Assembly (NCBI GenBank): GCA_963700285.1
Contig: CAVOXA010000013.1
Coordinates: 1-31,918 of the forward strand
Direction: 5' to 3'
Source of the DNA: an uncultured Chloroflexia bacterium
Lineage (GTDB): Bacteria; Chloroflexota; Anaerolineae; JAAYZQ01
DNA length: 31,918 nucleotides
Shown: positions 1 through 27,628 of the stretch, one piece after another
How the letters are laid out: each line of letters starts with the position of its first letter
How positions within the stretch are numbered: position 1 is the first letter of the stretch
The notes under the pieces: generated by a model
Databases searched by the model: none
Told to the model about the DNA's origin: nothing
Seen by the model: the letters and a program-made list of their open reading frames with translations, nothing else
Translations under genes and position numbers: made by a program

Positions 1-771
1 CTTCTTCTTCAGTGTGGTTACTTTGACATGGACGCCAGTATCGTCTAGCTTCAAAGATCGCATTGAGGAGTCGTGGGACGACCCTCTGTATTTCTCGATG
101 GTGACGCCTCTCACGAGACCTCGCCCGTCAAACCATTTGTACAACCTGACCTCGCCCCTTGCCATGTGCGACTCTGCATCGGGTTTGGATATCTCAGGCA
201 GCTCCTCACCGTCAGGATGGTCGTTATCCCGAGGTCGGACAGCAATCGGAAGAATGATTGGAGGATCAGATACTCCTCACTGGGCGGATACAGAACCGCC
301 TAAGAGATGTGACCGAGTCGACTACGACGCGTGAGTATTTTCTGATCTTCATCTCCTGTTTCAGAAGTTCCTGAATGGTGTTTATCGTCATATCCGAAGG
401 ACCTTTCACGGATGTTTGTCTTATGTTCTCTGGCAGGTCTCTGAACATCACGACCCGCCTCTCAGTCGAAATATCCCTGACGGGGTCTTATCGTAGCTCA
501 GAACGTCAGGCGTCCCATCGAAAACGAAGATCTTTGAGATGTCCCACCCGAACGAGGTCATGTTAGCCTTCACCTCGTTAGGGGGTTCGTCTATAGCCAC
601 GTACAGTACCTGTTCGCCGTTCATGGCGCCCTCCATGAGGAAACGCATGGCAATTGCAGTCTTGCCGGTGCCAGCTGTACCAGACACTATGTATGGCCGG
701 GCGGGGATCAATCCGCCTTCAAGCATCTCATCGATGCCAGGTATTCCAATCTCGACTTTATCCTTAATCAT
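1..771 (-). pseudogene. KaiC/RAD55 (GvpD-like) RecA-superfamily ATPase, archaeal type; 3 apparent frameshifts (~483, ~283, ~205); runs off the window start
   Basis: Joined frames read MIKDKVEIGIPGIDEMLEGGL, Walker A GTAGTGKT, Walker B RVVVDS and the C-terminal IEKYRGSSH motif. The break at ~483 is in a C homopolymer, so the gene may be intact in vivo. Confidence 0.85.
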
Positions 772-1285
772 TTCGAGCCCCAGCTCCGACACCCCCACTT
801 GGACAACCCTGCGGGTTGCCCACATTCCCCACCGCCCCGGCGGGATTGCTGCGCAAGAAGAAGGCGCGCCGCCGGGCGGCGCGATGAGGTGAAATCAGGC
901 TGCGATCCGGACCCCGCACCGCTGCCGGGGAATGCGCAACGGGAACACGCCGCTACTGCCATTGGGCGTGCAACGCAACACCTGGGCTCCGGAGAGCTGC
1001 GATGCGCGCGGAGGCGGCTGAAATCGCACCGCAAGGGTCCGAGTTTCCCGCCGATTTTCGATATCTGACGGAGACGGATCTGCCGGTCCGCATTCCTTCA
1101 CCCGCACTCCGCGACGGTGGAAGGCGAACTGGTGCTTCTTCGACGAAGGGGATCGTGCCGCAGAGGCATGGGTCCCCCGGAGACGGCTGCAGATCAGAAA
1201 CCACGCGGAGCGCAAACAGCCCGGGCCGACGGCTAATCGCCACCGGCCCGGAATGGAAGGGCACTAACTCACACTCGTAGCGCCA

Positions 1286-1921
1286 TCATGGGGATGAACT
1301 AGTCTTACGCCGGCGCACCGAGCGAACCGCACCAAGTCCGAGAAGCAGGCCGAGCCCGGTCAGAACGGCCGAAGGAAGCGGAACGACCGCGTAGGTGAAG
1401 TCGTCGATCAACCACCAATTGGCGTCCCCGGATCCGATGAACCTCAGCTCATCGACCGGCCCGGAGAAACTGGCGGTCAGATAGTCGAAGCCGTCGAAGC
1501 CGAGCGACATGCTGGCCGAATCGACGAACGGACTCAGGTAGCCTTTGACTGTGATGGTCGTCGAGCTGAAGCTCCGGCCGAGTCGTTCTGCCCCCAGCCG
1601 ACGAAATGGGCTCCCAAGAAATCGAACTGCGAACCTGTCGTCGTAACGGTCAGCGTGCCGTCGCCGTTGTACGCGGCATAGTCGCCCGACGGGAAATAGA
1701 ATGAGTTGTTGTAGGTCGACCGGAAGTCGGCCTCAGGCTGCCAACTCCCAAGATGTACTCCATGCGAAACCTCCGTAGCTGGAGGCTCCTGCACTCGCGA
1801 ACGTTTCCCAGGTCGCTGAAGTCGACAGCCCTTCGAAATCCAAGACTGTCGCGGCCTTAGCCGAGCTTGCTCCGGCCGCAAGCAGTGCAGCGACAACAAC
1901 GAGAGTCGCCCCTATCTTCAT
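1286..1921 (-). pseudogene. Secreted protein with a PEP-CTERM-like (VPLP-CTERM) exosortase sorting signal; frameshifted at ~1740 and ~1565
   Basis: RBS GGAGG and signal peptide MKIGATLVVVAALLAAGASSAKA, then VLDFEG. The C-terminus IDDFTYAVVPLPSAVLTGLGLLLGLGAVRSVRRRK has the motif, a TM helix and a basic tail. ORFs 1733-1921, 1534-1899 and 1286-1510 join into one protein. Confidence 0.85.
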
Positions 1922-2158
1922 GTTTCCTCCCTCACACCTGGTCAGCGTATGCCTGACCTGCCTCGCATGTGGGGCGCAACGTCAGGTCCGACCGGACCAT
2001 GAACCGCTGTGCCCCTTCCTTGTCATCCATATTGGAGAATGGGGGCTCAGCTTTGCAGGAATCTTGTAAGTCGAGGCCCGAGAGGCACTTGAAGGCGATT
2101 GGGTCTCTGAAGCAGGGCAGTAGTGGGTATCGAGGGAAAATGTTGAGGGGCAACTGTT

Positions 2159-2308
2159 ATGATCGGCTTAGCCCACGGCCACGACGATCTCCTCATCTCC
2201 GCCGCCCTCTGCTCTATCCTCGACCAGCAGGACTGGCCAGGCACCGGTACCGCCGAGATCATCCACCGCCAGGATCCGCTGGACGAAATCGACCACACGA
2301 GTTGGTAG
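2159..2308 (+). pseudogene. C-terminal fragment of a phage terminase large subunit-like protein
   Basis: Not in the ORF track. It translates as MIGLAHGHDDLLISAALCSILDQQDWPGTGTAEIIHRQDPLDEIDHTSW*. HDDLLISAAL matches the last catalytic Asp motif of terminase RNase H-like nuclease domains. It shares the strand and C-rich codon style of the portal gene. Confidence 0.65.
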
Positions 2309-2338
2309 CACTATATCAATGGGGGCGACCGGGGAGCC

Positions 2339-3082
2339 TCAGCCAGCAGAAACACAGAGTTCTCTCCACCTTCGGTCTGAATCCCAGAAGAAGAAAACAC
2401 GGTCAAACTGAGTCGTATAGCGATTGTTGAGGGCAGACTCGGTCAGTTCCACCGAGTTCGGAAATCGAAGGTTGTCGGCGACCATCAATAGCCAAATCTC
2501 CGAGCACCTGCCGCGGTATTTCTCCAGCTTCTTCTCCTTTCCGTCAATCTTGGCCTGGATGTGCTGTTCAGTCAGCTCCGGGACGAACCCGGCGCTGGAA
2601 CAGCACCAGCGATCTCCCTGTTTGGTTGCTCTCGTTGGTCGCTGGAGATACAACCGCGACACCTCTGTCGGCAGAGTGATCTGCTGCCGCGAAACACGCT
2701 TCAGCGTGAGCGATTTGCCTGGCTGGATCTTTGTCTCCCCTATGACGCTGACTATCTCCTGGGCAAGAGCTTCGACATTCTTCCTGGACAGGTGGCTTCT
2801 TGGATGGAAGCTGACCTGCACAAGCAACGGAAAACCGGCAGCCTTTTTCCATAGCTCGCTGGTGCGACTGACGATTTTCTGTGCCCAGTGATCCTGCGCC
2901 TGGGGTGAATAACCGTCTGGTGGCACAGGATGATAGACCTCGGTGTGCTCAACTCCGATAGTTCTGCAAGCGCCATCGATGAGAAAATCCGGGCTTTCAT
3001 GCGTCTCGATCCTTCCCGGCGGAAAACCTGGGAAAACCTGTTTGAAGTGCTTCAGATGCGCAAGCTCACCTGCTTTGTTCAC
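2339..3082 (-). CDS. Hypothetical protein with a putative PD-(D/E)XK-like nuclease fold
   Basis: 247-aa ORF with N-terminal ESPDFLI...IGVEHTE and C-terminal K..KY....EIWLL, a pattern typical of restriction-endonuclease-like proteins. Confidence 0.6.
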   Translation of the reverse strand: MNKAGELAHLKHFKQVFPGFPPGRIETHESPDFLIDGACRTIGVEHTEVYHPVPPDGYSPQAQDHWAQKIVSRTSELWKKAAGFPLLVQVSFHPRSHLSRKNVEALAQEIVSVIGETKIQPGKSLTLKRVSRQQITLPTEVSRLYLQRPTRATKQGDRWCCSSAGFVPELTEQHIQAKIDGKEKKLEKYRGRCSEIWLLMVADNLRFPNSVELTESALNNRYTTQFDRVFFFWDSDRRWRELCVSAG

Positions 3083-3185
3083 TGATCAAGGTTCCCTACG
3101 AGGAGCCGTGCAACAGACCTTTGGTTCAAGTTGCTTCCTGGTCGGCAAGAAAAGTCTTGCCCTGGCACCGCCTCCAACACAGCTC

Positions 3186-4385
3186 TCACGTGCAGTTTTC
3201 GGCGATGTCCAAGATGGTTTGGGGCTCCAACAGAAGAGGCTCCAGCTTCTCAGATAGCACGGAGATGCTCGTGATGGCATCCCACGCTTCAGTCGGCTTA
3301 ACCTCCAATGACCCACCTGTGCTCACCTGTTTGTACAAGTGAGCCAACTTCGTGTTGCGCATCTGCCAGGCAGCAGCGCAGCGTTCAAGGCCACCATCAG
3401 CAACAAAGTCCTCATCAACGAACACGGGCAGGACTATTTGCAGGATCTTCTCTACTGGAGACAATCTCGATAGGTCCATTTGCCTCTTCAGCGTAAAACT
3501 CTTCTCCTGCTGCTCTCGGTTTCCCCCTTCCAGTAGCCGTTGCGTCCTCTCCCAGAATTGAACCACAGCGAACTCAAGGACCGTTGCTGCAGTTAGTACC
3601 GCCATTCGATAGTTCTCGGAGTACAGGAACTCCAAGGACGAGAGCAGAATCTCGGTCTCGGTTGACCATCCGTCATTGAGAAGTGCCTGTATCTCATCGA
3701 GTCGCTCTGGAAACCTGTGAGTCGAGTGTACCGCCTCCCACTTGCTTTTGAACACCCCCGCATGCTTGCCACCCAGGGCGTTGCTGACTTCGTACTCGAT
3801 GTCAGCATCCCCAGTGAACGACGTCAGAGTGATGTCGCCAAAGGCGTCCAGCAAGAACTCCGTGTCGTGTCCGGCGAAGAGGTCATCCAAGACATGGTTG
3901 ACCTGTATACCTCTATGCCGTTGTGCGGCCTGAATGTTCCGTGTCAGCAAACGACCTTGGGCCGAATCCCACGCAAGTGCAACTTTGCACGCTCTGCGAA
4001 ACAGATTAACAGCTGCAAGGACTTGTGGAAACTGCTCTCTCATCTGGTCTTCCAGTTTCATGCGCTCTGCTTCCTGAGCTTCCTTGAGCGCAACACGTTC
4101 TCCTGACTCGATGAGGAGGTTGTCTGTGTCAACGAGTGGAGGTACTTCTAACTCAAAGATAGACAGGTCAACATCCAAGCCTATCTCAAACCGAATGTCG
4201 GTATAGGCGTGCAAATCGGCAACGTCATCCGTTAGTCCCAGGCTCAACCGAAAGACTGTGTCATCCGTCTCCACCCTGAACTCAGTGCCCACCTTGCCCT
4301 TCGCACTCAGGAAAAGGCAGAATGCTAGCAGTCTCTTATCGACAAGGTCTATCCGCCTAAGGTGAACCGTATGAACAACTGACAT
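3186..4385 (-). CDS. Hypothetical protein with a putative C-terminal HEPN (ApeA-like) RNase domain
   Basis: 399-aa ORF. The helix YRMAVLTAATVLE and the Rx5H motif RNTKLAH near the C-terminus are HEPN signatures. Confidence 0.65.
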   Translation of the reverse strand: MSVVHTVHLRRIDLVDKRLLAFCLFLSAKGKVGTEFRVETDDTVFRLSLGLTDDVADLHAYTDIRFEIGLDVDLSIFELEVPPLVDTDNLLIESGERVALKEAQEAERMKLEDQMREQFPQVLAAVNLFRRACKVALAWDSAQGRLLTRNIQAAQRHRGIQVNHVLDDLFAGHDTEFLLDAFGDITLTSFTGDADIEYEVSNALGGKHAGVFKSKWEAVHSTHRFPERLDEIQALLNDGWSTETEILLSSLEFLYSENYRMAVLTAATVLEFAVVQFWERTQRLLEGGNREQQEKSFTLKRQMDLSRLSPVEKILQIVLPVFVDEDFVADGGLERCAAAWQMRNTKLAHLYKQVSTGGSLEVKPTEAWDAITSISVLSEKLEPLLLEPQTILDIAENCT

Positions 4386-4447
4386 TTCCGCCCCCTAGCC
4401 TTGGCTATCAAGCTGCAGCGGCAGTCCGCGAAGATCGTGATTGTCCG

Positions 4448-5299
4448 CTATATGCTCAAGAGCCAGTCATGATCCACGGTGACCTGCTCAATCTCAACCT
4501 TCTCGGTCCGAACACCTAGAGCCAAGTCCTGCAACTTGTCGACCAGTTGGTCTCCGTCAATCAGATCAATGGCAGGAGCACCATCTCTCGTGGCCTCTCT
4601 CACCGCCTCCTTGGAGAAAGTCCCCGTCGTGATCAGGAGTCCTTTGTCAGCACGCCCCACCATCGCGCCGCGGAAGTCACGCACCTCTCCAGCACCCACT
4701 GTACCCTGCCATCGCTTGCACTGAAAGATCACGTGGAAACTCAGCAGACCGCCGAGTCTCATGATACCCTTCCCGTCGATGCCTCTGTCTCCACTCCTCC
4801 CGGTGACTTCCACCTGGACAAATCCGGACTCTCGCAGCATCCTTTGGGCCAGTCGTTCAAAGGCAGACGCGTCCATCTGGATCAACGTACTCAACAGATC
4901 CTCGCGCCAAGACTCGGCAGCCTCGGCTTCGCCCAGCTCTTCCTCGGCTGACGCCTTGGCTTCCCTCATCAGCTCTCGAACTACGCGGACGACATCCTTC
5001 TCATCCACGGTCTCGACCTTTCTGCCCGCTTGGGCTAGTGCCCAGACGCCTCTGGTCGAGTTTTCAAGCACACCATACTTCTTCAAGTAGGTACGAGTCC
5101 ATGCCAGCCGGTAGTCAATCTCTGTCATACCGCCTTTTTCGGGGTTGTGCAAGACCTCCAGCTGTTCATCTGTGAAGCCGGCGATCTCTGCAACCTTGTC
5201 GTTGATCTCCTCGATGGTGCCGGAGCCCCCAAGTTCCCGAAGTGCCTGGATCACGGGGTTCATCATTGAGTCGTATGTCGGCATCGCAACCATGCTCAC
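4448..5299 (-). CDS. mrr: Mrr-family type IV restriction endonuclease (Mrr_N + Mrr_cat)
   Basis: N-terminal PTYDSMMNPVIQAL...YRLAWTRTYLKKYG...RGVW, and catalytic region GRSGDRGIDG...QCKRW...VRDFRGAM...LIDG. Confidence 0.93.
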   Translation of the reverse strand: MSMVAMPTYDSMMNPVIQALRELGGSGTIEEINDKVAEIAGFTDEQLEVLHNPEKGGMTEIDYRLAWTRTYLKKYGVLENSTRGVWALAQAGRKVETVDEKDVVRVVRELMREAKASAEEELGEAEAAESWREDLLSTLIQMDASAFERLAQRMLRESGFVQVEVTGRSGDRGIDGKGIMRLGGLLSFHVIFQCKRWQGTVGAGEVRDFRGAMVGRADKGLLITTGTFSKEAVREATRDGAPAIDLIDGDQLVDKLQDLALGVRTEKVEIEQVTVDHDWLLSI

Positions 5300-5383
5300 G
5301 TCACCGCCTTTCCAACAGGGCGCAAAGAGGGCCAGACCTGCGTCCTGTTTCTAGCTGATCCTGTATGTAGGGGTTTAGCTCCG

Positions 5384-5412
5384 AGTATAACATAAACCAG
5401 CACGGCTGTCTA
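5384..5412 (-). promoter_or_regulatory. sigma70-type promoter for the mrr cassette
   Basis: Minus strand TAGACA-17 nt-TATACT, with an extended -10 TG. Confidence 0.65.
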
Positions 5413-5425
5413 CTTTCTGTAGTCT

Positions 5426-6722
5426 CAGTAGATCCAAATTTCATGGTATAGGCACTGCCGGTGCGACGATTTCATGAACGCAACCGTATCGATGCTCTAT
5501 CGCCCGAACGATGAATCTCGCAAAGCGAGTTAGCGAAAACCGCCGGGTGTCCAGCTGTCGACGCCCAGGTCGCGGCACTTGTGTGTAGAGCCAACGCAGA
5601 TGCAACCAAACGTTCAACAAAAAGAAGCTCAGGCCGATCAGCACAAAGCGCAAAGCCGGGTTCTTGGAGGTCGTCCAAGCTCGAACTTGGCCAGCGCAGC
5701 GATAGCTGGTTTCCACACCGAACCGACGACGATACGAGCGGCGTGCTTGGCGCGGCGTCAGGTCAAGGTTGATCAGGATAAACAGCAACCAGCCAGCGCG
5801 TCGTTTCATCCGTCCTGTCCGTTTGGCCGTGGAGAAGACCCGACAGACGGCTACCTCAGCCGTGAACTGCTTTTTCTCTGCGGTATTGCGGAAGGTGTGC
5901 GTCGTACGGTAGCTCTTGTTACCCTGACACAAAGCACGAGTGCCGCCTGTACGACCGCGGATCGTACAGGCGATGAGAGCGGGCGTCCCGCTCTGCTCGA
6001 GATAGGTCTGGACATCGATACCGGCAAAGCCTTTGTCCAAGAACAAGCATTTTATGCCTATTCCAATCTCCTTAACGCGCTCCAGCAGTGTCTTCAAGAC
6101 ACCGACGATGCTGTCGGTGGGCAGAAAGAAGTGAAGGGCCAGGGTCACCCGCAGCCCGCGCTGGATCACGTAGGCGGTGGCAATCCGGTAGAAGCGGGTC
6201 GTGCCGTCCTTGGCTCGGCTGCGAACCCACAGCCCCTCTTCTTGAGATGTCTTGCCGTAGTAGGGCCGGTCATGCAGGTCGATGGCCATGTCCTGGGCCT
6301 GACGCCACAGGCGTTTCGGAACTTGAGCCGCCAACGCCTCATTCAGGTTGCGTTCCAGTTCTGGCAGTCGCTCGGTCGTCAGTTGCTCGTTCAGATATTG
6401 GCGAACGGTCTCAGCACCAGGTCCACTGCTCAACTCAGCACAGGCAGATTCGATCGTGCACTGCCGGGCGGCTGCTGTCAACAGGATGTTCAGCAGGTCG
6501 TCCGTTGTACATTTGTAGCCCTCTGCCTGCAACGGCAGATGAGCCTGAAGACCTTGGCGTGCGTGTTCCAACACTTGATTAGCCGTCAACTTTGGTGTAT
6601 CATTCATCCTGGGCTTGCTCTCCTTGAATTGTTTGTTCGCAACTTACAGTTTACAAGGATTGGGCAAGCCCATCAACTTTTATGTCCGTAAATGCATTAT
6701 GCCCACAAAATTGGATCTACTG
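5426..6722 (-). mobile_element. Complete ISH3-family insertion sequence (1297 bp)
   Basis: Terminal inverted repeats CAGTAGATCCAA (5426-5437) and TTGGATCTACTG (6711-6722). The 5-bp target duplication AGTCT is at 5421-5425 and 6723-6727. CAG ends and an A...T 5-bp DR are ISH3 hallmarks. Confidence 0.92.
5441..6607 (-). CDS. ISH3-family DDE transposase
   Basis: Intact 388-aa ORF with motifs AIDLHDRPYYG, LFLDKGF and YRRRFGVETSYR. Confidence 0.92.
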   Translation of the reverse strand: MNDTPKLTANQVLEHARQGLQAHLPLQAEGYKCTTDDLLNILLTAAARQCTIESACAELSSGPGAETVRQYLNEQLTTERLPELERNLNEALAAQVPKRLWRQAQDMAIDLHDRPYYGKTSQEEGLWVRSRAKDGTTRFYRIATAYVIQRGLRVTLALHFFLPTDSIVGVLKTLLERVKEIGIGIKCLFLDKGFAGIDVQTYLEQSGTPALIACTIRGRTGGTRALCQGNKSYRTTHTFRNTAEKKQFTAEVAVCRVFSTAKRTGRMKRRAGWLLFILINLDLTPRQARRSYRRRFGVETSYRCAGQVRAWTTSKNPALRFVLIGLSFFLLNVWLHLRWLYTQVPRPGRRQLDTRRFSLTRFARFIVRAIEHRYGCVHEIVAPAVPIP

Positions 6723-6754
6723 AGTCTCTCCTCATATTACGACTCCGAAGCAAC

Positions 6755-6783
6755 TTGACATGCTAGGACAAGTGTCGTATAAT
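6755..6783 (+). promoter_or_regulatory. Perfect-consensus sigma70 promoter upstream of the portal gene
   Basis: TTGACA (6755-6760), 17 nt, TATAAT (6778-6783). Confidence 0.85.
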
Positions 6784-6788
6784 GCTAG

Positions 6789-6815
6789 CGAACAACTGTT
6801 CGCAACATCTGTTCT
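6789..6815. promoter_or_regulatory. Tandem LexA (SOS/Cheo) boxes
   Basis: Perfect CGAAC-AACT-GTTCG (6789-6802) plus imperfect GCAAC-ATCT-GTTCT (6802-6815), over the expected +1. The same motif class lies upstream of uvrB. Confidence 0.8.
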
Positions 6816-6835
6816 ACGGCACGGAAGCGGAGACC

Positions 6836-8278
6836 ATGCCACCAGACCAGCCGTCACTGAAAACCCGCCTGGCCCACGCCCTCTTCGGCGACATAATCCA
6901 GACCGCCGTCGCCGAGGCCACTGCCGCCATCTCCGTCCGCGTCGACGACGCCCCCGGCTGGAACCGCCTCGCCCCCGCCGGCCCCCACGACCGCGACTTC
7001 GCCGAGTGGTACCAGGACCAGGAAGACGCCCTCGAAGCCTGGCGCAAGAACTTCTCATGGTCCGCCGCATCGTCACCCTGGCCCGCTCCTACGTCCTCGG
7101 TGCCGGGCGGCGGAGTCACCATCAGCAGCGACCACGCCTACCTCCAGTCCTTCGTCGCCGCCTTCGCCGCCCACCCCAAGAACCGCCTGGCCGAGCGCTA
7201 CGGCCCCATCTGCGACGAGCTCACCCGCGCCGGCGAGATCTTCCCCGTCCTCTTCACCAACCGCGTCGACGGCATGAGCTACCTCCGCTTCGTCCCCGCC
7301 ACCCAGATCCACCACATCGAGACCGACCCCGACGACTACGAGACCGAACTCGCCTACCTCGGAACCTCGCAGCACCGATCGAACCTCGAACCCAAAACGC
7401 TGGCTCGGCGTCGACAACCCCGCACGCCTGGGAAGTCTGCCACAGACGGAACCCTGCCCGCCCGTCATGCTCCACTTCGCCGTCAACCGGCCCATCGGCG
7501 CCACCCGCGGCGAGGGCGACCTCGCCCCCATCCTCCGCTGGGCGCTGCGGTACTCCAACTGGCTCGAAGACCGCGTCCGCCTCAACCGCGTCCGCACCCG
7601 CCAGCTCCTGCTCGAGATCGATCCGACTAGCGGTCGCCGACGACACCCGCGTCGCCGAGCGCAAGCGCCAGGTCGAGACCGAAGACCCCGTCCGCGCCGG
7701 CATCTACGTCCACGGCCCCGGCGAAGAGGTCACGCGCCCACTCGCTCGACATAAACGCCGACGACGCCGCGACCGACGGCAAGCAGCTCCGCCTGGCCGT
7801 GGCCACCGGCGCCAACACCGCCCTCCACTACCTCGGCGAGGGCGAGGCCACCAACTATGCCACCGCCCGCGAGATGGGCGAGCCCACCGCCCGCTTCTAC
7901 ACCGAGCGCCAGGCCGAGCTGTCCCGCATGCTCACCCGCCTGGTCCAGGTCGCCTACGACCGCAAGGTCGCCCTGGGCCTGGCCCGCAAGCCTGCCAGCG
8001 AGGACTATGGCATCACCGTCGCCGTCACCGAGACCGCCCGCGCCGACAACGCTGCCCTGGCCGAGGCCGCCCGCGACATCGTCCAGGCCCTGTCCGACAT
8101 GCGCGCCCAGGGCTGGATCGACGACGCCACCGCCATCCAGCTCGCCTTCAAGTTCGCCGGCGAGCCCATCCCCCAGGAGGAGATCGAGCGCATCCTTGAA
8201 GCCTGTGGCGAGCGAAGCGAAGCCAACCCTGCCCTGGACCGTAGCCAAGAGCCAGCCGCCGATGAACCCGAAGCCTGA
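6836..8278 (+). pseudogene. Phage portal-like protein with multiple frameshifts between ~7050 and ~7750
   Basis: RBS GGAG + ATG 6836. Joined frames give ...EAWRKNF/MVRRIVTLARSYVLG...HPKNRL...DELTRAGEIFPVL...MLHFAVNRPIGATRGEGDLAPILRW...HYLGEGEATNYATAREM...AFKFAGE, resembling Chloroflexota prophage portal proteins. Confidence 0.75.
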
Positions 8279-8636
8279 CCCGCCGCCCGAGGAGGAACCG
8301 CCCGATGAACCACCCGTCCCGATCCCGTTCCCCTGGTTTCCCTGGTACCCGTGGCCACCGGGCACCCAGCCGCCGCCCAGCCTCCACCTCGAGTACCACA
8401 ACGCCAACCCCAACCCGCGCCGCGTCTGCGGCATCTGCCAGGCCGACATCGGCAAGGTCTTCCGCCTCGAAGACGCGCCCAGGCTGCCCCGCCACCCGCA
8501 CTGCTACTGCTTCTACGTCGTCACCGACGCGCCAGTCACCAAGGAAGGAAACACGCCCATGACCGGCCGCGCCGAGCCAGCTTGCACCGGCCATCTCCCC
8601 ATCTCCCCCTCACCCCCTCGCCCCATCGAACCCTGA
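8262..8636 (+). CDS. Small phage head morphogenesis-like protein (Mu gpF/SPP1 gp7 C-terminal motif) with a Pro-rich N-terminus
   Basis: Overlaps the end of the portal gene. Motif RVCGICQ...G..F.....P.LPRHPHCYC. Confidence 0.65.
   Translation: MNPKPDPPPEEEPPDEPPVPIPFPWFPWYPWPPGTQPPPSLHLEYHNANPNPRRVCGICQADIGKVFRLEDAPRLPRHPHCYCFYVVTDAPVTKEGNTPMTGRAEPACTGHLPISPSPPRPIEP
8591..8627 (+). repeat. Degenerate 8-bp tandem repeat
   Basis: ccatctcc ccatctcc ccctcacc ccctcgcc ccatc. Confidence 0.55.
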
Positions 8637-8995: not shown

Positions 8996-11900
8996 ATGAC
9001 CCGCATTTCCACCGCTTGCATTGGACCCTTGCTCGCGCTGACCCTGATCGTCACCGCTGTCGTGGGCCCCATCAACCGCCGGGCCGCTCTGGCCCATCAG
9101 GGGCCCCAGCGTACCACGCCGGCCGTGGAAGCTCCAGCTCGCCCCGCGAATCCCAGTCCTGAGGCCCTATTGCGGACACTGGACCAGATGCCTCTCAGCT
9201 TCGAGGCCAATCAGGGTCAGTTCGCCACGCCTGTGCATTTTACCACCCGCCAGGCTGGCGGCATTTTCTTCTTCACTACCCACGAGATGGCGGCGGTGTT
9301 CCGCCGGACAACGTCCGACTCTGCTCTAGCGGAGGATCTGGAGATAGAGGGCGAAGGGGAGGGGTCGTTGCCGTACCTTGAGTCCGAAACCCTCGCCCTC
9401 AAGGTCCACTTTCTTGGCGCCTCCCCCACGGTCGAGATAGAGGGACTGGACCCTCTGCCCGGCAGGGTTAACTACTTCAGCGGCAGCGACCCAGTCCACT
9501 GGCAACAGGCCGTGCCCACCTACGCCACCATCCTCTACCACAATCTCTATCCCCACACTGACCTGCGCTACTCCGGCGTGGGCGGCCGGCTCAAGTACGA
9601 CTTTCTCCTGGACCCAGGGGCCGAGGTAGACCGCATTGCCCTGGCCTACACCGGGGTGGAGGGATTGGAGCTCAACGGCGCGGGCCAACTGCAGGTCAGG
9701 ACCGCCTGGGGCACCCTGGTGGAAGATGCCCCCCTCGCCTGGCAGGAGGGCGAGGCGGGGCGCCGCGAGCCGGTCGCCGTGCGCTACCGGCTCCAACCAG
9801 GTGACATTGTGGGCTTCCAGGTGGGCGCCTATGATCCTGCCCGGCCTCTGGTGATCGACCCCACGCTCCGCTACGGCACCTATGTCGGAGGCGGCAGTGT
9901 TGAGCACGGCCGCGACATTGCGGTCGATGGCGAAGGGAACGTTTTAGTCACTGGCTCCACCCAATCCTCCGACTTTCCCACAACGGCCGGGGCCTTCGAC
10001 CGCAACCGCGCCGCCGGCCAGGACGTCTACGTCCTCAAGCTGGCGGCGGACGGAAGTGGTCTGCTGTTCAGCACTTTTGTAGGGGGTAAGGAGAGCGAGT
10101 CGGGCTTTGGCCTGGCCCTGGATGGCGATGGGAATCCCGTGGTCGTCGGCTGGGCCTGGTCCTCGGACTTTCCCACTACTTCCGGGGCTCACGACACCAG
10201 CTATGGTGGGAACAGGGACGCCTTTGTGTTCAAGCTGTCGGCCGACGGCAGCAAGCTGCTGTTTAGCACCTTTGTAGGCGGTAGTGAGCGCGACGCCATC
10301 TATCCGGTGCAGGTTGATGGCGACGGGAACGTCATCCTCACCGGCTATACGCTTTCCACAGACTTTCCCACAACCGCTGGGGCCTACGATGGCACCCACA
10401 ATGGTGACAAGGAGATCATCGTCTGTAAGCTGTCCCCAGATGGGAGCGAGCTGCTGTTCAGCACCTTTGTTGGAGGCAAGCACATGGACCTTGGCCGCCA
10501 CATTGTCCTCGACAGCGCGGGCAACTATGTCGTCACTGGCTACACCTGGTCCTCCGACTATCCCACCACCCCTGACGCCTATGACCGCACCCACGGTGGG
10601 GGAGAGCGCGACATGTTCCTCCTGAAACTGTCCGCTGACGGAAGTACGTTGCTGGCCAGCACCTACGTCGGGGGCAGCGGTGATGAACGCGGCCGTGGCT
10701 TGGCGCTGGATGGGCAGGGCAATCCCGTCATCGCCGGCTATACCAGCTCCTCCAATTTCCCCACCACGCCTGGCGCATACGACACCACTTACGGTGGCGC
10801 ATACGACATCTATGCCCTCAAGCTATCGGCCGACGCCACCACGCTACTGTACAGCACCCTGGTCGGCGGCAGCCAGAACGACTATGCCCGCGGGATGGAT
10901 ATGGACGCCTCGGGCAACATCTTTGTCGTTGGGGATTCCTACTCGAGCAGCTTTCCCACCACCCCTGATGCCTTTAGCACCAAAGGCAATGGAGGTCTGG
11001 ACGCAGTTGTCCTGAAACTGTCGCCGGATTTTAGTTCCCTGCTTTACAGCACCTTTGTGGGGGGCAGCGGTGAGGAGCAGGGACACGAACTGGCGCTAGA
11101 CGGGAAGACCGGTGTCGTGATCACCGGCCACACCAAGTCCAGCAACTTTCCCACCACCTCCGGCGCCCATGATCGCACCTACAACGGCGACCAGGACCTG
11201 TTCGTCTTCTACCTCGACGGGCTGACCGGGCAGGGGCACACTTTGACTGTAAACGTCTCCGGCAGCGGCACCGTGACCAGGGACCCGCACAAGTCCGCCT
11301 ATCAACCCGGAGAGCAGGTCAAGCTGACGGCCAGCCCCAGCCCGGGCTGGGGCTTCTCCGGCTGGTCGGGCGACCTCTCCAGCAGTGCCAATCCGGCTAC
11401 CCTCACCATGGATGGCAACAGGTCCGTTACCGCCACCTTCACTCAGAATCAATTCACCCTCTCTGTCAACGTCTCCGGCAGCGGCACCGTGACCAGGGAC
11501 CCGCACAAGTCCGCCTATCAATCCGGAGAGCAGGTCAAGCTGACGGCCAGCCCCAGCCCGGGCTGGGTCTTCTCCGGCTGGTCGGGCGACCTCTCCAGCA
11601 CCGCCAACCCAGCCACCCTCACCATGGATGGCAACAAGTCCGTCACCGCCACCTTCACCCAGGACCAATACACCCTCTCCGTCAGTGTCTCTGGCAGCGG
11701 CTCGGTGGCCAAGTCGCCCGACCAGGCGGGTTACCACCATGGCGACCAGGTCCAACTCACTGCCAGCCCCAGCGCCGGCTGGACCTTCACTGCCTGGTCC
11801 GGGGACCTGACTGGCGCCGAGAATCCGGCCACCCTCACCATCGACGGCACCAAGTCCGTCACCGCCACCTTTGGCCAGAATGGGTACACGCTGACCGTGA

Positions 11901-12613
11901 ACGTCGATGGCAGCGGTTCCGTGAGCAGAGCCCCGGAGCAGGCCATCTACGTGCTCGGCGAAGAGGTGCAGCTCAGCGCCACCCCAGATCCTGGCTGGTC
12001 GTTCTCCGGCTGGTCCGGCGCCCTGACCGGCGCTGAGAATCCGGCCACCGTCATCATCGGCGGCGACGAGATCGTCACGGCTGCCTTCACTCAGAAAGAG
12101 CACACCCTGACTGTGAGCATCACCGGCAGCGGGGACGTGACCAAGGCGCCCGATCAGGCCAGCTACCATTACGGCGACCAGGTCCAGCTCACCGCCAGCC
12201 CCGGCGCAGGGTGGCTCTTTGCCGGCTGGTCCGGCGACCTCTCCGGTGGTGACAACCCGGCCAGCCTAACCATCGACGGCGACAAGGTCGCAACCGCCAT
12301 CTTTGGACAGACGTGCCACACCTTGAGCACGGAGGCCAGCCCCGAGGAGGGCGGCTCAATCAGTGTCGACTATGACCCCAATTGCGACGACGCTGGCGTC
12401 GCCAAGTACGTTATTGGCACCGTCGTCCAACTGACCGCCAGCCCTGCCCCGGGCAGGTTCTTTAGCCACTGGAGCGGCGACGTCACAGGAAACGCCAATC
12501 CCACCAGCCTGTCTGTGAGCGCGGATGCCTCGGTCCTTGCTCACTTCCAGGAGACGCAGATCCTATTCCTGCCCATGCTCCTGACGGGGCCATATTCGCT
12601 GTCATTCCCTTGA
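8996..12613 (+). CDS. Large secreted/surface protein: N-terminal beta-rich domain, 7 SBBP beta-propeller repeats, 6 InlB-B-like repeats, Chloroflexota-type C-terminal sorting tail
   Basis: Signal peptide and LSFEANQGQ...PLVIDP N-domain. Seven T(F/Y/L)VGG...D..G...FPTT repeats, six TL.V...GSG.V...F.GWSG repeats, and the terminal ILFLPMLL. Confidence 0.9.
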   Translation: MTRISTACIGPLLALTLIVTAVVGPINRRAALAHQGPQRTTPAVEAPARPANPSPEALLRTLDQMPLSFEANQGQFATPVHFTTRQAGGIFFFTTHEMAAVFRRTTSDSALAEDLEIEGEGEGSLPYLESETLALKVHFLGASPTVEIEGLDPLPGRVNYFSGSDPVHWQQAVPTYATILYHNLYPHTDLRYSGVGGRLKYDFLLDPGAEVDRIALAYTGVEGLELNGAGQLQVRTAWGTLVEDAPLAWQEGEAGRREPVAVRYRLQPGDIVGFQVGAYDPARPLVIDPTLRYGTYVGGGSVEHGRDIAVDGEGNVLVTGSTQSSDFPTTAGAFDRNRAAGQDVYVLKLAADGSGLLFSTFVGGKESESGFGLALDGDGNPVVVGWAWSSDFPTTSGAHDTSYGGNRDAFVFKLSADGSKLLFSTFVGGSERDAIYPVQVDGDGNVILTGYTLSTDFPTTAGAYDGTHNGDKEIIVCKLSPDGSELLFSTFVGGKHMDLGRHIVLDSAGNYVVTGYTWSSDYPTTPDAYDRTHGGGERDMFLLKLSADGSTLLASTYVGGSGDERGRGLALDGQGNPVIAGYTSSSNFPTTPGAYDTTYGGAYDIYALKLSADATTLLYSTLVGGSQNDYARGMDMDASGNIFVVGDSYSSSFPTTPDAFSTKGNGGLDAVVLKLSPDFSSLLYSTFVGGSGEEQGHELALDGKTGVVITGHTKSSNFPTTSGAHDRTYNGDQDLFVFYLDGLTGQGHTLTVNVSGSGTVTRDPHKSAYQPGEQVKLTASPSPGWGFSGWSGDLSSSANPATLTMDGNRSVTATFTQNQFTLSVNVSGSGTVTRDPHKSAYQSGEQVKLTASPSPGWVFSGWSGDLSSTANPATLTMDGNKSVTATFTQDQYTLSVSVSGSGSVAKSPDQAGYHHGDQVQLTASPSAGWTFTAWSGDLTGAENPATLTIDGTKSVTATFGQNGYTLTVNVDGSGSVSRAPEQAIYVLGEEVQLSATPDPGWSFSGWSGALTGAENPATVIIGGDEIVTAAFTQKEHTLTVSITGSGDVTKAPDQASYHYGDQVQLTASPGAGWLFAGWSGDLSGGDNPASLTIDGDKVATAIFGQTCHTLSTEASPEEGGSISVDYDPNCDDAGVAKYVIGTVVQLTASPAPGRFFSHWSGDVTGNANPTSLSVSADASVLAHFQETQILFLPMLLTGPYSLSFP
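11252..11683 (+). repeat. Near-identical 216-bp intragenic tandem duplication (B-repeats 1 and 2)
   Basis: Copies start aacgtctccggcagcggcaccgtgaccagggacccgcacaagtccgcc at 11252 and 11468. Confidence 0.9.
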
Positions 12614-21892: not shown

Positions 21893-24800
21893 TCATCCCT
21901 CACGAAGGGCATTGTCTATGCATGTGCTCATCTTTTCTGCCAGGACCCGCATGTGGGATTCTTCTACCGCGATACCATGGGCACCAACGATGGATACGTG
22001 ACTGCCAGGGATCTCGTGGACTTGAGCACCTCCCTCCGCAAACTCGCCCCAACCCGCCCGCGGGCTGTCGGCATCGCTCAAAGTCGCCTTGGCCAGAAAG
22101 ATCTCAATCCGACCTGGGTAGGGGCGTGGAACGTAGCGCCTTACGGCCCACAAGTTGGCCAGGACCTTTAGCCTGAGGCGCATATAGTCTCGCTGTCCGG
22201 TGGAGGGTAGTTCAACTATCCTGTGCGTGTGGTGGCCAATGCGTTGCCGAAATGTTCGAAGGAGGTAAGACACAAAGCGTAGGGTGGTCTGCAGCCCAGG
22301 ACTTCGCAGGGGTGAGGGTTCCACCATGGCCAGGAGAGGCACTTTCTGTCCCTGTGCCCAGAGTTGTTGAGCCATCTCAAAGGCCACAACGGCGCCCGAG
22401 CACACCCCAGCCAGGAGATAGGGGCCCTCGTGCTGCACGCGACGGATCTCATGCAGATAGCGTGCAGCCATTGCCTCGATCCAGACTGGGTTCTGAGCCC
22501 CATCCTGGAGGCCGTAGAACGGTTGCTCAGGGCCGAGGTACTGGGCAAGATCGCCGAGATCAGTGAACACATTGCCTACATTGCCAGGGACAACAAACAG
22601 AGGAGGTCTGGAGCCGGCGAGCCGCATCGACACCAGCGGTGACCATGCTGCTGTCACAGATCCCTTCTCCCGGTCCACGGTCGCTGCCAACTCTTCGATG
22701 GTTGGCGCCTGAAAGAGGGCGGCCAGCGGCAGCTCTACATTGAGTGTTTTGTTTATGAGGGCTAGCAGGCGTATGCCCAACAGCGAGTGCCCCCCAAGGT
22801 CGAAGAAGTTGTCATGGACGCCTACCCGCTCAACGCCCAGGACTTGGGCCCAGATACTGGCCAGTGCTTCTTCCCCTGGAGTCCGGGGGGCGGCATAAGC
22901 AGCCCCTAACTGAGAAAGACTCCCGTTGGGCTCGGGAAGCGCGTTCCGGTCGACCTTACCGCTGGGCGTGAGAGGCAGTTGCTCCAGAAACACAAAGGCC
23001 GTAGGGACCAGCGCCGCTGGTAGTTGCTGACTCAGATAGGTTCTCAATTGGCCAGCCGTCGCACGTTCTTCCCTTGAAGCGACCACATAGGCCCCGAGAT
23101 AGGTCTCCCCCTGCTTCTGCTTCCGGGGGATAACCACACAGGCCTCCACGGCCGGGTGGCGGGCCAAGATGGCGGTGACCTCGCCAGGTTCTACACGTAC
23201 CCCTCGGATCTTGACCTGGTCGTCGAGCCGGCCCAGGATCTCGAGTAGTCCGTCGGGCCGATATCTGCCCCGGTCGCCCGTATAGTACAGCAGGTCTCCC
23301 TCTTTGTTGTGGAATGGGTTCGGGGCGAAGCGATTCTGTTCTTCCTCGGAGGCATGGATGTAGCCCAGGGTCCGGAAGGGTGTGCGCAGCACGATCTCTC
23401 CAGGTTCACCAATACCACACAACCGCTTTCTGTCTGTGAGAACCAATGCCTGGGTCTGTGGCATCGGCCAGCCTGCAGGTTGGACACCGGGGAGAGGCTC
23501 GGCTGGCACACGATAGAAACACTTGACCATGGTGGTCTCGGTGGGCCCATAGAGGTTGATGATTTCGCCTCCACCAGAGAAGGTAGCCCGCCATTTGCGA
23601 ACCAGCGCCTCGGTGAGCGGTTCACCCGCAAAGAACACCCAGCGCAGGGCACGCAGAGAGATGCTCGCTGGAGTATGAGCCAGCCATAGTTGGGCCAGAG
23701 ATGGCACCGTGTTCACAATCGTGATGCGCTCATGTTCGAGCCACTGCATGAGATCTTGCGGATCAAGGGCATCCGTACCATCTGGCAGACAGAGCGTCGC
23801 GCCGCTGACCAACGGCAAGAAGACATCCCGTAGAACTGCGTCAAAGGAAAGGCCAATCAACTGCGCTGCCCGGTCTCCTGGTCCGACCGAAAAGGTGTCA
23901 CGCTGCCAGGCAAGGAAATGTCCCAGGCTCTTGTGACAGCCCAATACGCCTTTGGGCACACCCGTCGTGCCAGAGGTGAAAAAGATGTAGGCCGGATCAT
24001 CGGGACTCGGGTCTGGCAAAGGACCTGAATCCTGCCCCTCATCCGGCTCTGCACCCATGAACCGGCCTGTCTCTTGGTCTACCCGTAGAACAACCAGATC
24101 TGGCCCTCCAGCCGACCACCCACCCGCCTCGTAAGCGCCACTGACGCGCAACATTGCCCTCGCAGCAGCCTCTCGCAGCATGAGCTGCTGTCGCTGGAGG
24201 GGAAGTGAGGGATCAATGGGCAAGAGCACGCAGCCACTCATGAATGTGCCGATCATGCTGGCAATCAGACCAAAGCTCCGCGAACCGAACACTGCTACCA
24301 CATCCCCTGGCTGCAATCCTCTGGCTAGCAAATGTCGCGCTAGGGAATGGGCACACTCGGACAATGTGCCGTAGGTCCAGTTTCGTCCAGCTCTGGATGA
24401 CCGCTGGGCTGTCTGGTGCGCGATCTGCCCACGCGGCGAACATTTGCATCACCGTTTCCTGGGGCGGTTCAGCCAGAAGGGCGCGCGGATCAGGCAGCAA
24501 GGGGTGGGCTTCTGATGTCACGAGCGAGTAGGATTGATAGGTTGCTCGGGAGAGAGGACAATCTGCTCGAGCAACTGCCGGTATTGGGCCAGCATCTCGG
24601 CCATGCGCGCCTGGCTGAATAGGTCGGCATTATAGACGAAACGCAACTGAATGCTCTCGCCCTGGTCCGAGACATACACAGTCAAGTCGAAATTCGACTT
24701 TGTCCCCCTGCGAGGGAGGTTGCTGATGCTGAGCCCTTGCAGAGCCAGGGGTGTGTTCCGTGCGGGGAGCATGTTGAAGAAGACCTGAAAGAAGGGAGTA

Positions 24801-25963
24801 CGGCCAAGTTCGCGTTCCGGCTGGAACTCCTCGAGAAGTTTTTCAAAAGGGACATCCTGATGATCATAGGCCGCCAGGGTGGTCTCGCGCACTCGGTGGA
24901 GCAGTTCGAAAAATGATGGCTGCCCGGACAGATCTGTGCGCAGGACCAGATTGTTCAGGAAGAAGCCGATCAAAGCCTCAGTCTCGCGGTGATTCCGGCC
25001 GGCAATGGGTGTACCGACGACGACGTCCTCCTGGCCAGTGAGGCGGTAGAGCAGCGCCTTGAACGCGGCCAGCAAGGTCATGAACAGGGTGGTGCGCTCC
25101 CGTTGGCCGAGTGTTTTGAGCGCATGGGTCACATCTTTTGGTATCTCCAGGGACTGCGTCCCCCCCCGATAGGTCTGCATTGGCGGACGCTGGTGGTCAA
25201 GGGGCAGCTCCAGGTTGGGCGGAGCGCCTTCAAGCTGCTGCTTCCAGTAGCCAAGCTGTTTCTCCAATACCTTCCCCCGAAGCCACTCCCGCTGCCACAG
25301 GGCATAGTCCGCGTACTGGATGGGTAGCTCGGGAAGCGGTGAAGGTTCTCCAGCGGCAGAGGCAGCGTACAGGTCAGAGATCTCGCGGCGGAGGATGCCC
25401 ATCGACCAGCCGTCGGAGATGATGTGGTGGATGCTGAGGAGCAGCACATGCTCTTCATCCTGCAGCCGCCACAAGGCGGCTCGCAGAAGTGGACCCTGGG
25501 CCAGGTCGAAGGGCTGCCGGGCACCCTCCTCAACCAGCCGCTGGACTTTATCCTGCCGCTTGCTCTCGGGCAGCTCTCGTAGATCCACCACCGGCAGGCT
25601 CAAGGCCAAGGCTGGGGAGATCTTTTGCACTGGCCGGCCATCCATGGCGAAGAAGGTGGTTCGCAAAGCCTCGTGGCGCCGTACGACCTCGTTAAGGCTC
25701 TGCTTCAGCGCTGGTACGTTCAGCGGTCCCAAAATCTGATAGGCTCTGGACATAATGCGGACGGGACTGCCAGGCTCCAACTGGTCGAGGAACCATAGCC
25801 GCTCCTGGCCAAAGGAAAGCGGTATCTCGTCGAGATCGTGTCTCCGGGGCCTCACCTGTTGCCGAGTCGGTGCGATCTCCTCCCCCTCGAGGAGGTAGGC
25901 AAGAAGCTCTAGATCCTCCCTAGTGAGTTCATTGCTATCTAGGCGCTTTTCGGTCTGGGTCAC
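21893..25963 (-). CDS. NRPS module C-A-PCP-TE (Cys-type TE); two apparent frameshifts (~24530, ~24385)
   Basis: C domain HHIISDGWS; A domain FTSGTTGVPKG, NLYGPTE, TGD, SGKVDR; PCP LGGHSL; TE GVCSG. ORFs 24518-25963, 24213-24521 and 21893-24364 join across the C-A linker. Confidence 0.92.
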
Positions 25964-27402
25964 GCAGATTCTCTCCTCCGCCTTTGCTTCTCAAACATCC
26001 TCTTGACCTCGTTGGCCGGGATGCCTTCAACCTTGTTCCAGAGTTGGGCGATTCTCTCTGTCTGTCCTGGTCTCTCCTCCCGGGCGATGATCGCCTCTGA
26101 CAGCTCGGCAATCGTGGGCGCCTCAAATATCGTGAGCAGGGGGACCTCTACGCGCAGGGAATCTCGCACGCGGGAGGCAATCTGGGTGGCCAGCAGCGAG
26201 TGTCCTCCCAGTTCAAAGAAGCTGTCGTGGATGCCAATCTTCTCGATGCCAAGGACCTCGACAAAGATGTCGGCCAGCACTTCCTCGACCGGTGTGCGAG
26301 GGACCACGTAGGCCTGCGCTGGTTCGTGTCTTGCCCAATCGGGCTCGGGAAGTGACTGTCGGTCGACTTTGCCATTGGGTGTCAGCGGGAGAGCCTCGAG
26401 CATCGCAAAGGCGGCAGGGACCATATAGTCGGGCAGCTTTTCCCGGAGAAAGCCACGCAGATCAGAGGGAATCAGGGTTGCCCCGCCCTCCGGGACGACG
26501 TAGGCCACCAGCCGCTCGTCGCCCTGTGTCTTTTCCTTGATCAGCGCAGCCGCCTGTCCCACGTCCGGATGTTGCCGCAGGACGGCCTCAACCTCCCCGA
26601 GTTCAACGCGGAAGCCACGGATCTTCACCTGGAAGTCCTTTCGGCCTTGGTGAACAAGGCGGCGGTCGTGCGACATGCTACCCAAGTCTCCGGTGAGATA
26701 GATGCGCTGGTTTGTATCATCTGGATCGTCAAGAAACTTGGCTAGAGTCAGTTCAGGCGTGTAGTTCATGATCTCATGAAGCAGATTGCGATGGCTGTGA
26801 GCGACCCCTTTGGGCTGACCGGTTGAGCCCGAAGTATAGAGCAGAAAGGCAAGCCTATCCGGCGATATGGGTAGACCCGGAGAGTCTGTTGATGTGCTGC
26901 CATCGAGCTCATCTACATCCTGAATTTGGTGCACGCTCTCAGCCAGTATCCTGGCCAAACCCACATTCCGCCTGTTAGTCAGGATGAGGGGTGCCTGCGA
27001 ATCCCGAAGCGAATAGCTGATCCTGGCTTGGGGATAGGTAGGATCCAGCGGGACGTACATCTTCCCAGCCTTGAGTGCCCCCAAAATAGTCGCAATCAGC
27101 GGTGCTCCCTGCTCAAGAAGTACAGCGACGGGCATCTCACGGTCGCCAAGCTGCCGGAGGATGCCATGTGCCACTCGGTTGGCAGCTCTGTCCAACTCGT
27201 CGTAGGTGAGCTCCTGGCTCGATGTCTTGACCGCGAGTTTCTGGCCATACTCGACCGCCAGCTTTTCGAACCGGTCAGGGATCGATTGCTCGATTTCGTC
27301 TCTTGCGAAGGCGATGAACTCACCGCTGGGATGGAACCACTTTCCTTGAGTTTTCCCCTGGCTTTGCGTAGTGCCAAAGGGTAGTCGGGCAGCTTCACTC
27401 AT
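25960..27402 (-). CDS. Stand-alone NRPS A-PCP didomain with an in-frame internal deletion of the A-domain core
   Basis: YTSGSTGQPKG is followed almost directly by PELT...YLTGDLG, so motifs A4-A6 are missing. PCP LGGHSL is present. Confidence 0.88.
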   Translation of the reverse strand: MSEAARLPFGTTQSQGKTQGKWFHPSGEFIAFARDEIEQSIPDRFEKLAVEYGQKLAVKTSSQELTYDELDRAANRVAHGILRQLGDREMPVAVLLEQGAPLIATILGALKAGKMYVPLDPTYPQARISYSLRDSQAPLILTNRRNVGLARILAESVHQIQDVDELDGSTSTDSPGLPISPDRLAFLLYTSGSTGQPKGVAHSHRNLLHEIMNYTPELTLAKFLDDPDDTNQRIYLTGDLGSMSHDRRLVHQGRKDFQVKIRGFRVELGEVEAVLRQHPDVGQAAALIKEKTQGDERLVAYVVPEGGATLIPSDLRGFLREKLPDYMVPAAFAMLEALPLTPNGKVDRQSLPEPDWARHEPAQAYVVPRTPVEEVLADIFVEVLGIEKIGIHDSFFELGGHSLLATQIASRVRDSLRVEVPLLTIFEAPTIAELSEAIIAREERPGQTERIAQLWNKVEGIPANEVKRMFEKQRRRRESA

Positions 27403-27628
27403 CAGATGTCTCCAAAGCAATCAGCCAGGCGCCGGAAATCGCCGTAAGCGCAAAGCCTGACCTCTCCAACATGCCCGTCAACTCCGGGGCGGTATCGTAG
27501 TCCTGCTCCCACCAGTGTAGGCCCCCCTCCCATTTGAACCGCTTTCCTCCACAAGGACGAAGGGGTCCCTTGTCCGCAGCAACAGCTCTGCCTCCGCCCG
27601 TTGCCGGGCTGGGGCACGGAAGTGCCAT
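27395..27628 (-). CDS. Small ORF (77 aa), possibly a remnant of a larger tailoring gene
   Basis: Starts 2 nt after the upstream NRPS stop and overlaps the next start. The C-terminal half (WWEQDYDTAPELTGMLERSGFALTAISG) looks protein-like. Confidence 0.4.
   Translation of the reverse strand: MALPCPSPATGGGRAVAADKGPLRPCGGKRFKWEGGLHWWEQDYDTAPELTGMLERSGFALTAISGAWLIALETSDE

What the first reader, a model, noticed from the sequence alone, without database searches (positions are those of the whole stretch)
2159..8636. Nuclease cargo hotspot inserted between terminase and portal genes
Seen: terminase tail (+), three antisense genes with their own promoter, an IS, then portal and gpF-like genes (+). 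Known: terminase and portal are usually adjacent, and phages and satellites carry variable defence hotspots between core genes. Inference: the terminase-portal gap of this Chloroflexota element is a variable anti-phage hotspot that could be mined for new systems.
Basis: partly seen in the sequence, partly recalled or inferred. Interest (0 to 1): 0.7.

Follow-up and report, generated by a model that had tools for sequence, protein, structure and literature searches.

The report
Swappable nuclease islet in dead phage-module
Inside a broken spare copy of a phage DNA-packaging gene set in a Chloroflexota bacterium sits an intact, backwards-facing row of nuclease-like genes whose content differs between close relatives, likely a small anti-phage gene-swapping spot of this genus only, because in the wider group the same gap is tight or holds ordinary phage genes.

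Summary
Observation holds. The 49-aa ORF is only the last ~46 codons of a terminase large subunit. Three antisense ORFs follow: a PD-(D/E)xK-fold protein, a HEPN-like predicted dimer and Mrr. Then come an ISH3-like IS (5-bp target duplication), a LexA-boxed portal that is a pseudogene, and a short gpF-like ORF; no capsid gene follows.

The tail-to-mrr slot has three different fillings: here, in the sister genome (DUF4365 protein, plus an REase-ARP protein behind a duplicated tail) and in a public contig (815 nt). The IS is absent elsewhere. mrr is under purifying selection (dN/dS 0.03-0.10); these portals are decaying.

The class-wide claim fails. Of 104 terminase-portal junctions, 36 are under 200 bp, and long antisense ORFs occur in only 3 rows (2 loci, this genus). 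Other gaps mostly hold co-oriented lysozyme or small genes.

The parent module, an SOS-boxed, mostly single-copy head-gene cluster, is in 72-88 of 401 class genomes and is GTA-like. The scan noted a similar kit earlier in Dehalococcoidia. Defence activity is untested.

The parts
2159..2308 (+). 3' tail only (about 46 codons, HDD motif) of a terminase large subunit; left anchor of the variable slot
   Evidence: homology begins about 2158-2171
2339..3082 (-). 247-aa cargo protein, predicted PD-(D/E)xK restriction-endonuclease fold (invariant E29, P31, D32, G43, E45)
   Evidence: phrog_35865 E 1e-14; 24 homologues; model pLDDT 88; nearest folds largely PD-(D/E)xK nucleases, Z 5-7
3186..4385 (-). 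399-aa cargo protein, HEPN-like C-terminal domain (E271, R343...H349), predicted homodimer
   Evidence: dimer score 0.60 vs best control 0.00
4448..5299 (-). Mrr-family (type IV) restriction endonuclease, Mrr_N + Mrr_cat; fixed first gene of the antisense row and right anchor of the slot
   Evidence: Pfam E 1.5e-29 and 3.6e-21; PADLOC mREase_IV; 92% nt identity in sister genome; dN/dS 0.03 and 0.10
5384..5412 (-). sigma70-like promoter with extended -10 for the antisense row (predicted)
   Evidence: conserved in G261:C13
5426..6722 (-). ISH3-like insertion sequence (transposase 5441-6607), terminal inverted repeats, 5-bp AGTCT duplication; recent insertion between the two divergent promoters
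   Evidence: empty site in G261 and in contigs of runs X1, X2, X3
6755..6802 (+). 12/12 sigma70 promoter (6755-6783) followed by a LexA-type box GAAC-N4-GTTC (6789-6802)
   Evidence: same box before uvrB and lexA-like genes
6836..8278 (+). portal pseudogene in three reading frames
   Evidence: phrog_10963; multi-base insertions at sites shared with sister-genome copies; dN/dS 0.32-0.38 among secondary copies
8262..8636 (+). 124-aa ORF with the gpF-like Cys/His motif; no capsid gene follows
   Evidence: phrog_1657/115/4728 at E 2e-4 to 7e-4; homologue at the far end of the main cluster on C22

Best explanation
This is an intact row of three nuclease-like genes with variable content, sitting antisense inside a decayed spare copy of a LexA-boxed phage-head gene module, and it likely works as a small host-kept anti-phage islet of this genus. 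Shown: the terminase is reduced to its tail, the portal is broken, the cargo ORFs are intact, mrr is under purifying selection, and the DNA between the tail and the mrr stop codon differs in three of three versions seen. Inferred: one promoter before mrr drives the row. Mrr would cut modified foreign DNA, the HEPN-like dimer would act as an abortive-infection RNase, and the PD-(D/E)xK protein would be a further DNase. Inferred: cassettes are swapped by homologous recombination between the conserved flanks (terminase tail on one side, mrr plus portal promoter on the other), which exist in several copies per genome. Unequal exchange at the tail would give the tail-cassette-tail array seen in G261:C13. 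The packaging genes are being lost while the host keeps the cargo.
For: Three fillings of one slot: window 2155 nt (247 + 399 aa), G261:C13 a 459-aa DUF4365 protein, run X3 contig 815 other letters. Homology resumes at the mrr stop codon in G261, X3 and X1. G261:C13 has a second cassette (REase-ARP, Pfam E 5e-20) between full terminase and a 92.5%-identical tail copy. All four identifiable cassette genes at this locus type are nuclease-like. mrr dN/dS is 0.03 and 0.10 against 0.32-0.38 for secondary portals and 0.18 for the main portals. The 399-aa gene is compositionally atypical, 0.7th percentile. One of 3 class homologues of the 247-aa protein lies beside a TIR-like effector and a PDC-S31 gene.
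Against: No activity was tested. Neither uncharacterised protein hits PADLOC or Pfam directly. The fold match is Z 7 at best, within the range the tool calls common. HEPN support comes from distant homologues at E 4e-4 to 4e-3, below Pfam cut-offs. Two of 3 class homologues of the 247-aa protein sit among housekeeping genes. Another copy (G261:C2) holds non-defence cargo. Only two genomes of the genus exist in the collection. The 815-nt filling could not be read. The 247-aa and mrr genes are not compositional outliers (15th and 20th percentile).
Confidence: 0.6

Rival explanations
1. The slot is a neutral landing pad in dead phage DNA that collects any passing gene or IS. Only mrr is selected, and the nuclease look of the others reflects what mobile DNA commonly carries.
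For: G261:C2 holds an ISKra4-like element and DUF1254/DUF1214 genes in the same gap. Other tail relics in both genomes are followed by unrelated genes. The window's gap took an IS. No defence-library hit for the two unknown proteins.
Against: Cassettes are intact, co-oriented with mrr and begin just behind its stop codon, while neighbours decay. Four of four identifiable cassette genes at the mrr-type locus are nuclease-like.
Confidence: 0.2
2. The copies are, or recently were, a capsid-less satellite that borrows particles from the host's domesticated head cluster on SOS induction and carries the islet like P4 does. The window shows a degraded member.
For: G261:C13 joins small terminase-like gene, terminase, islet and portal to a DnaD-like gene (phrog_1701 E 7e-14) and an integrase-like gene (phrog_1 E 2e-9). 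Related LexA-boxed modules lie at other sites in both genomes. Secondary copies are closer to each other (82-84% nt) than to the main copies (72-74%).
Against: Every secondary portal seen is broken. The window has no integrase or replication gene. No end repeat longer than 12 bp was found around the G261:C13 element. No close relative of the window's portal was found in IMG/VR.
Confidence: 0.13
3. One reading: the terminase-portal gap is a general, mineable anti-phage hotspot across this Chloroflexota element family.
For: Gap length does vary from -10 to 4873 bp. Six co-oriented gap ORFs hit PADLOC DNA-modification models.
Against: 36 of 104 junctions are under 200 bp. Of 68 longer ones, 32 hold a co-oriented ORF of 150 aa or more (16 ORFs are a GH25 lysozyme family) and only 3 rows (2 loci) hold long antisense ORFs. 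In 80 further GTDB loci, 19 of 40 gaps are under 100 bp, and two of the three largest hold rearranged capsid genes.
Confidence: 0.07

Closest known systems
P2/P4 defence hotspots (Rousset et al. 2022, PMC9122126; passages and Discussion read)
   Same: A variable set of nuclease-type genes between conserved anchors next to packaging genes. Exchange by recombination is proposed. The paper also proposes that decaying elements leave host-useful cargo behind.
   Different: The P2 hotspot lies between the replication gene and portal, next to cos, in working elements with hundreds of arrangements. Here it lies between a terminase tail and mrr/portal in broken copies, with three fillings seen, and no cos or activity is shown.
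Mrr type IV restriction endonuclease (Pfam PF14338 + PF04471)
   Same: Both domains above cut-off; no methylase next to it.
   Different: Target modification unknown; here it leads a variable antisense row.
ApeA and other single-gene HEPN systems (10.64898/2026.01.26.701840; passages read)
   Same: One protein, unknown N-terminal region, C-terminal HEPN-like domain, predicted dimer.
   Different: 399 aa against about 580 for Ec2ApeA. No PADLOC or PDB sequence match. The family is small, 15 clusters at E <= 1e-30. Higher oligomers and tRNA cleavage are untested.
Gene transfer agents such as RcGTA and CcGTA (PMC11841831; passages read)
   Same: The parent module has terminase, portal, protease-capsid fusion, holin and lysozyme, is mostly single-copy and clade-patterned, is often split over two sites, and carries host SOS boxes.
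   Different: No particles or random packaging shown. No tail gene was recognised by PHROGs among 46 proteins scanned. The window's own copy is a relic, not the main cluster.

Membership tests
Phage/satellite defence hotspot (P2/P4 type) | Variable gene content between conserved anchors | tested here: met
   three fillings between tail and mrr; genus only
Phage/satellite defence hotspot (P2/P4 type) | Holds across the element family | tested here: not met
   3 of 104 junction rows (2 loci) with long antisense ORFs
Phage/satellite defence hotspot (P2/P4 type) | Carrier is a working mobile element | tested here: not met
   for the window: terminase tail only, broken portal, no capsid or integrase
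Phage/satellite defence hotspot (P2/P4 type) | Cargo protects against phage | not testable with these tools
   needs plaque assays
Mrr type IV REase | Mrr_N plus Mrr_cat domains | tested here: met
   both above cut-off
PD-(D/E)xK nuclease superfamily (247 aa) | Restriction-endonuclease fold with acidic catalytic motif | tested here: inconclusive
   invariant PD..G.E motif; best Z 7.0, rmsd 4.2, 119 aligned, with many PD-(D/E)xK neighbours at Z 5-6.5; Foldseek no match at E <= 0.001
HEPN superfamily (399 aa) | Rx4-6H motif and upstream conserved Glu in a helical domain | tested here: inconclusive
   E271 and R343 invariant in 12 rows, His present in all with spacing 4 or 5; distant homologues hit HEPN_RiboL-PSP E 4e-4 and HEPN_AbiU2 E 4e-3, below cut-off
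HEPN superfamily (399 aa) | Homodimer with the motif at the interface | tested here: met
   predicted only: score 0.60, best control 0.00; mark reached by 20 of 30 solved pairs and 1 of 23 single chains; runs agree in 87% of contacts, pLDDT at least 80; residues 347-356 in interface
ISH3 family | Transposase model, terminal inverted repeats, short target duplication | tested here: inconclusive
   NF033541 192 bits against cut-off 225; repeats and 5-bp duplication present
Gene transfer agent (parent module) | Host-controlled, vertically kept head genes without own replication or integration | tested here: inconclusive
   60 of 72 genomes with one terminase match; exact box before 18 of 55 loci; no hit to one integrase query in 80 loci; no general integrase scan was run
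Gene transfer agent (parent module) | Particles that package random host DNA and transfer it | not testable with these tools
   needs induction and sequencing of particle DNA

The most novel reading that the evidence does not exclude
Anaerolineae carry a widespread, SOS-induced, GTA-like head-gene kit, and in this genus a capsid-less satellite split off from it. The satellite stacks new anti-phage cassettes by duplicating the terminase 3' end, giving tail-cassette-tail arrays read from one mrr promoter. The 399-aa HEPN-like and 247-aa nuclease-like proteins would be two undescribed defence systems.
Probability: 0.2. Interest if true: 0.8.

Novelty: new variant of a known kind. Interest (0 to 1): 0.45.

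Why it matters
It yields two testable, unannotated defence candidates and shows a defence islet forming in the remains of a host-controlled phage module. It also sets a limit: the gap is not a class-wide mine. The larger lead is the parent module, an SOS-boxed head-gene cluster in about a fifth of Anaerolineae genomes, with contiguous copies in cultured Leptolinea strains, where GTA-like particle production can be tested directly.

Tried and rejected
Single-sequence fold of the 399-aa protein failed (pLDDT 36) and was not searched. PDB sequence searches with both cargo alignments found nothing meaningful. Atlas searches gave only unnamed clusters; nearest named were MauJ 0.84 and DUF1780 0.80, leads only. 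An exact degenerate tail pattern found nothing in metagenome or viral contigs. No 399-aa relative was found in genome contigs by one pattern and no 247-aa relative in plasmids. No RNA holder was listed, so expression is unknown. Rfam found nothing in the window. No terminator was found at the end of the antisense row. The idea that G176's several tails are cassette arrays was not supported: they are separate relics. The PEP-CTERM-like gene at 1286-1921 is not proof of foreign DNA, because the genome has an exosortase. Paper searches finding no description of the Chloroflexota module: 0 papers each; 5 listed, none about it by title or abstract start; subscription papers are not covered. Search listings only were seen.
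Full report
Setting. The window is a whole contig (C13) of a 7.05-Mb, 22-contig assembly. Carriers of its terminase family are titled Chloroflexota or Anaerolineae in 79 of 80 GTDB records, so the class is inferred to be Anaerolineae. From 8024 on, the contig duplicates C1, which lacks the region under study.

Observation. The 49-aa ORF at 2159-2308 matches the end of ~500-aa ORFs in 40 of 401 class genomes and aligns at their invariant HDD motif. Six of 7 full-length relatives hit terminase PHROGs weakly, and one matches annotated Bacillus phage terminases at 31% over 91%. Only the tail is here. Public contigs continue leftwards from 2171 into terminase sequence, whereas the window continues into unrelated DNA. 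Bases 1-2160 are frameshift-rich and partly atypical, so this junction may be a chimeric contig end rather than a deletion; I could not decide. Three antisense ORFs follow. Mrr is clear. The IS is ISH3-like, 5426-6722, with a 5-bp duplication (sequence), and the site is empty in G261 and in contigs of three runs. The portal has a 12/12 promoter and a GAAC-N4-GTTC box. The same box precedes uvrB (Pfam-checked) and two genes whose N-termini I recognise as LexA-like (recalled, not HMM-tested). The portal is in three frames. Its lesions include multi-base insertions at sites shared with the sister genome's copies, while the neighbouring 9-14 kb differs from C1 by at most 3 indels per kb, so real decay is more likely than read error.

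Cargo. 247 aa: 24 homologues with an invariant PD..G.E motif. The model is confident, and its nearest folds are largely PD-(D/E)xK nucleases such as SfsA, CdiA toxins, the LlaBIII nuclease and Card1, at Z 5-7. That is suggestive only, and Foldseek found nothing. 399 aa: a small family with invariant E271 and R343 and a His four or five residues on. Two distant members hit HEPN Pfam models below cut-off. A homodimer scored 0.60 against a best control of 0.00; the mark was reached by 20 of 30 solved pairs and 1 of 23 single chains, the runs agree in 87% of contacts, pLDDT is at least 80, and residues 347-356 are in the interface. A pass may reflect likeness to solved HEPN dimers.

Variation in the genus. 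G261:C13 reads small terminase-like gene, full terminase, antisense REase-ARP protein, a second terminase tail (92.5% identical over 134 bp), antisense DUF4365 protein, mrr (92% nt), portal relic, then DnaD-like and integrase-like genes. A contig of run X3 joins the tail to the mrr stop through 815 other letters. So three of three versions differ between the same two anchors. By my own NG86 script, mrr has dN/dS 0.03 and 0.10, secondary portals 0.32-0.38 and main portals 0.18. Against a purely defensive slot, G261:C2 holds an ISKra4-like element and DUF1254/DUF1214 genes. Only two genomes of the genus are held.

I located terminase ends in loci L002, L005, L037-L244 and the window; the short loci L007-L036 were left out. 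Of 195 ends, 122 had a portal downstream, 11 upstream and 62 none in the held DNA. After removing exact duplicates, 104 junctions remained, 36 under 200 bp. Of the other 68, 32 held a co-oriented ORF of 150 aa or more and 3 rows held an antisense one: the window and G261:C13 counted twice. ORFs were called by a home-made composition score. The largest gap family, 16 ORFs, is GH25 lysozyme (4 of 4 checked). PADLOC on all 101 gap ORFs hit, outside this genus, 4 SspD-like and 2 methylase ORFs, all co-oriented. In 80 more GTDB loci, 19 of 40 gaps were under 100 bp; the largest held rearranged capsid genes or host genes. The gap is therefore not a family-wide defence hotspot.

Parent module. The terminase family occurs in 72 of 401 class genomes, with one match in 60 of them, and the portal in 88. 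An exact box lies within 2 kb upstream of the terminase in 18 of 55 loci, against 0.067 per 2 kb overall, and one integrase query hit none of 80 loci. Protease-capsid fusion and holin are recognised; tail genes were not. This resembles a gene transfer agent (PMC11841831, passages), but particles are unshown. Searches found no paper on it.

Mechanism. Shown: relic flanks, intact cargo, swaps bounded by the tail and the mrr stop, selection on mrr. Inferred: one antisense transcript, nuclease and RNase activity against phage, and exchange by recombination between the repeated flanks, with tail duplication stacking cassettes. This parallels the P2/P4 hotspots and the decay route to defence islands discussed in PMC9122126 (Discussion read). 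A hotspot survey preprint (10.1101/2024.10.15.618418, passages) does not mention Chloroflexota in its main text; its supplements could not be seen and may bear on this.

Verdict. A real but narrow hotspot in dead copies of an interesting module: new variant of a known kind, interest 0.45.

Noticed in passing
window 1-2160: Contig start of low quality or foreign origin: a KaiC-domain gene and a PEP-CTERM-like gene, both on the minus strand and each with several frameshifts; KaiC part at the 0.2th compositional percentile; no match in the sister genome. Possibly a chimeric read end, possibly an upstream cassette.
   Followed up: partly
window 8024-31509 vs G000:C1:1303941-1336059: The rest of the contig duplicates C1 (96-98% up to 27.9 kb; 77% at 30.2-31.5 kb). 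C1 has only the last part of the portal and lacks the islet, so the two look like strain variants of one site. C1 has an extra IS at window 22487.
   Followed up: partly
G000:C22:136677-151100 and 200283-202700; G261:C17: Main head-gene cluster with open-frame portal, protease-capsid fusion and LexA-type box; its terminase module lies about 50-60 kb away on the other strand in both genomes of the genus.
   Followed up: partly
class survey: LexA-boxed terminase-portal-capsid-holin-lysozyme module in 72 (terminase) and 88 (portal) of 401 genomes, mostly one copy; contiguous in two cultured Leptolinea genomes (exact box not found there); GTA-like candidate.
   Followed up: partly
L039:8808-11319; L084:10263-13175; L043:10536-12095: Repeated three-gene module (DUF5763-like, DnaD-like, integrase-like), behind a LexA-type box in two of the three copies.
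   Followed up: partly
L050:14523-20000 and L056:480-3617: In portal-first versions of the module, a type ISP/IIG restriction-modification gene (and AbiEi/AbiEii in L050) follows the last module gene: a possible second defence site at the module's end.
   Followed up: partly
G000:C10:499-1820: Two terminase-tail relics in tandem, each formed by an internal deletion, one at a short palindromic repeat and one at a short shared word.
   Followed up: partly
window 8996-12613: 1205-aa surface protein (SBBP propeller, InlB-type repeats) with its own 12/12 promoter, absent from the matching site beside uvrB in G261.
   Followed up: no
window 21893-31742: Minus-strand NRPS genes (condensation, adenylation, carrier, thioesterase, TubC-type docking domain), several in pieces.
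   Followed up: no
L197, L202, L209, L210; L113, L200: Co-oriented PAPS-reductase/SspD-like and N6/N4-methylase genes in the terminase-portal gap of some IMG/VR contigs, possibly DNA-modification genes.
   Followed up: no
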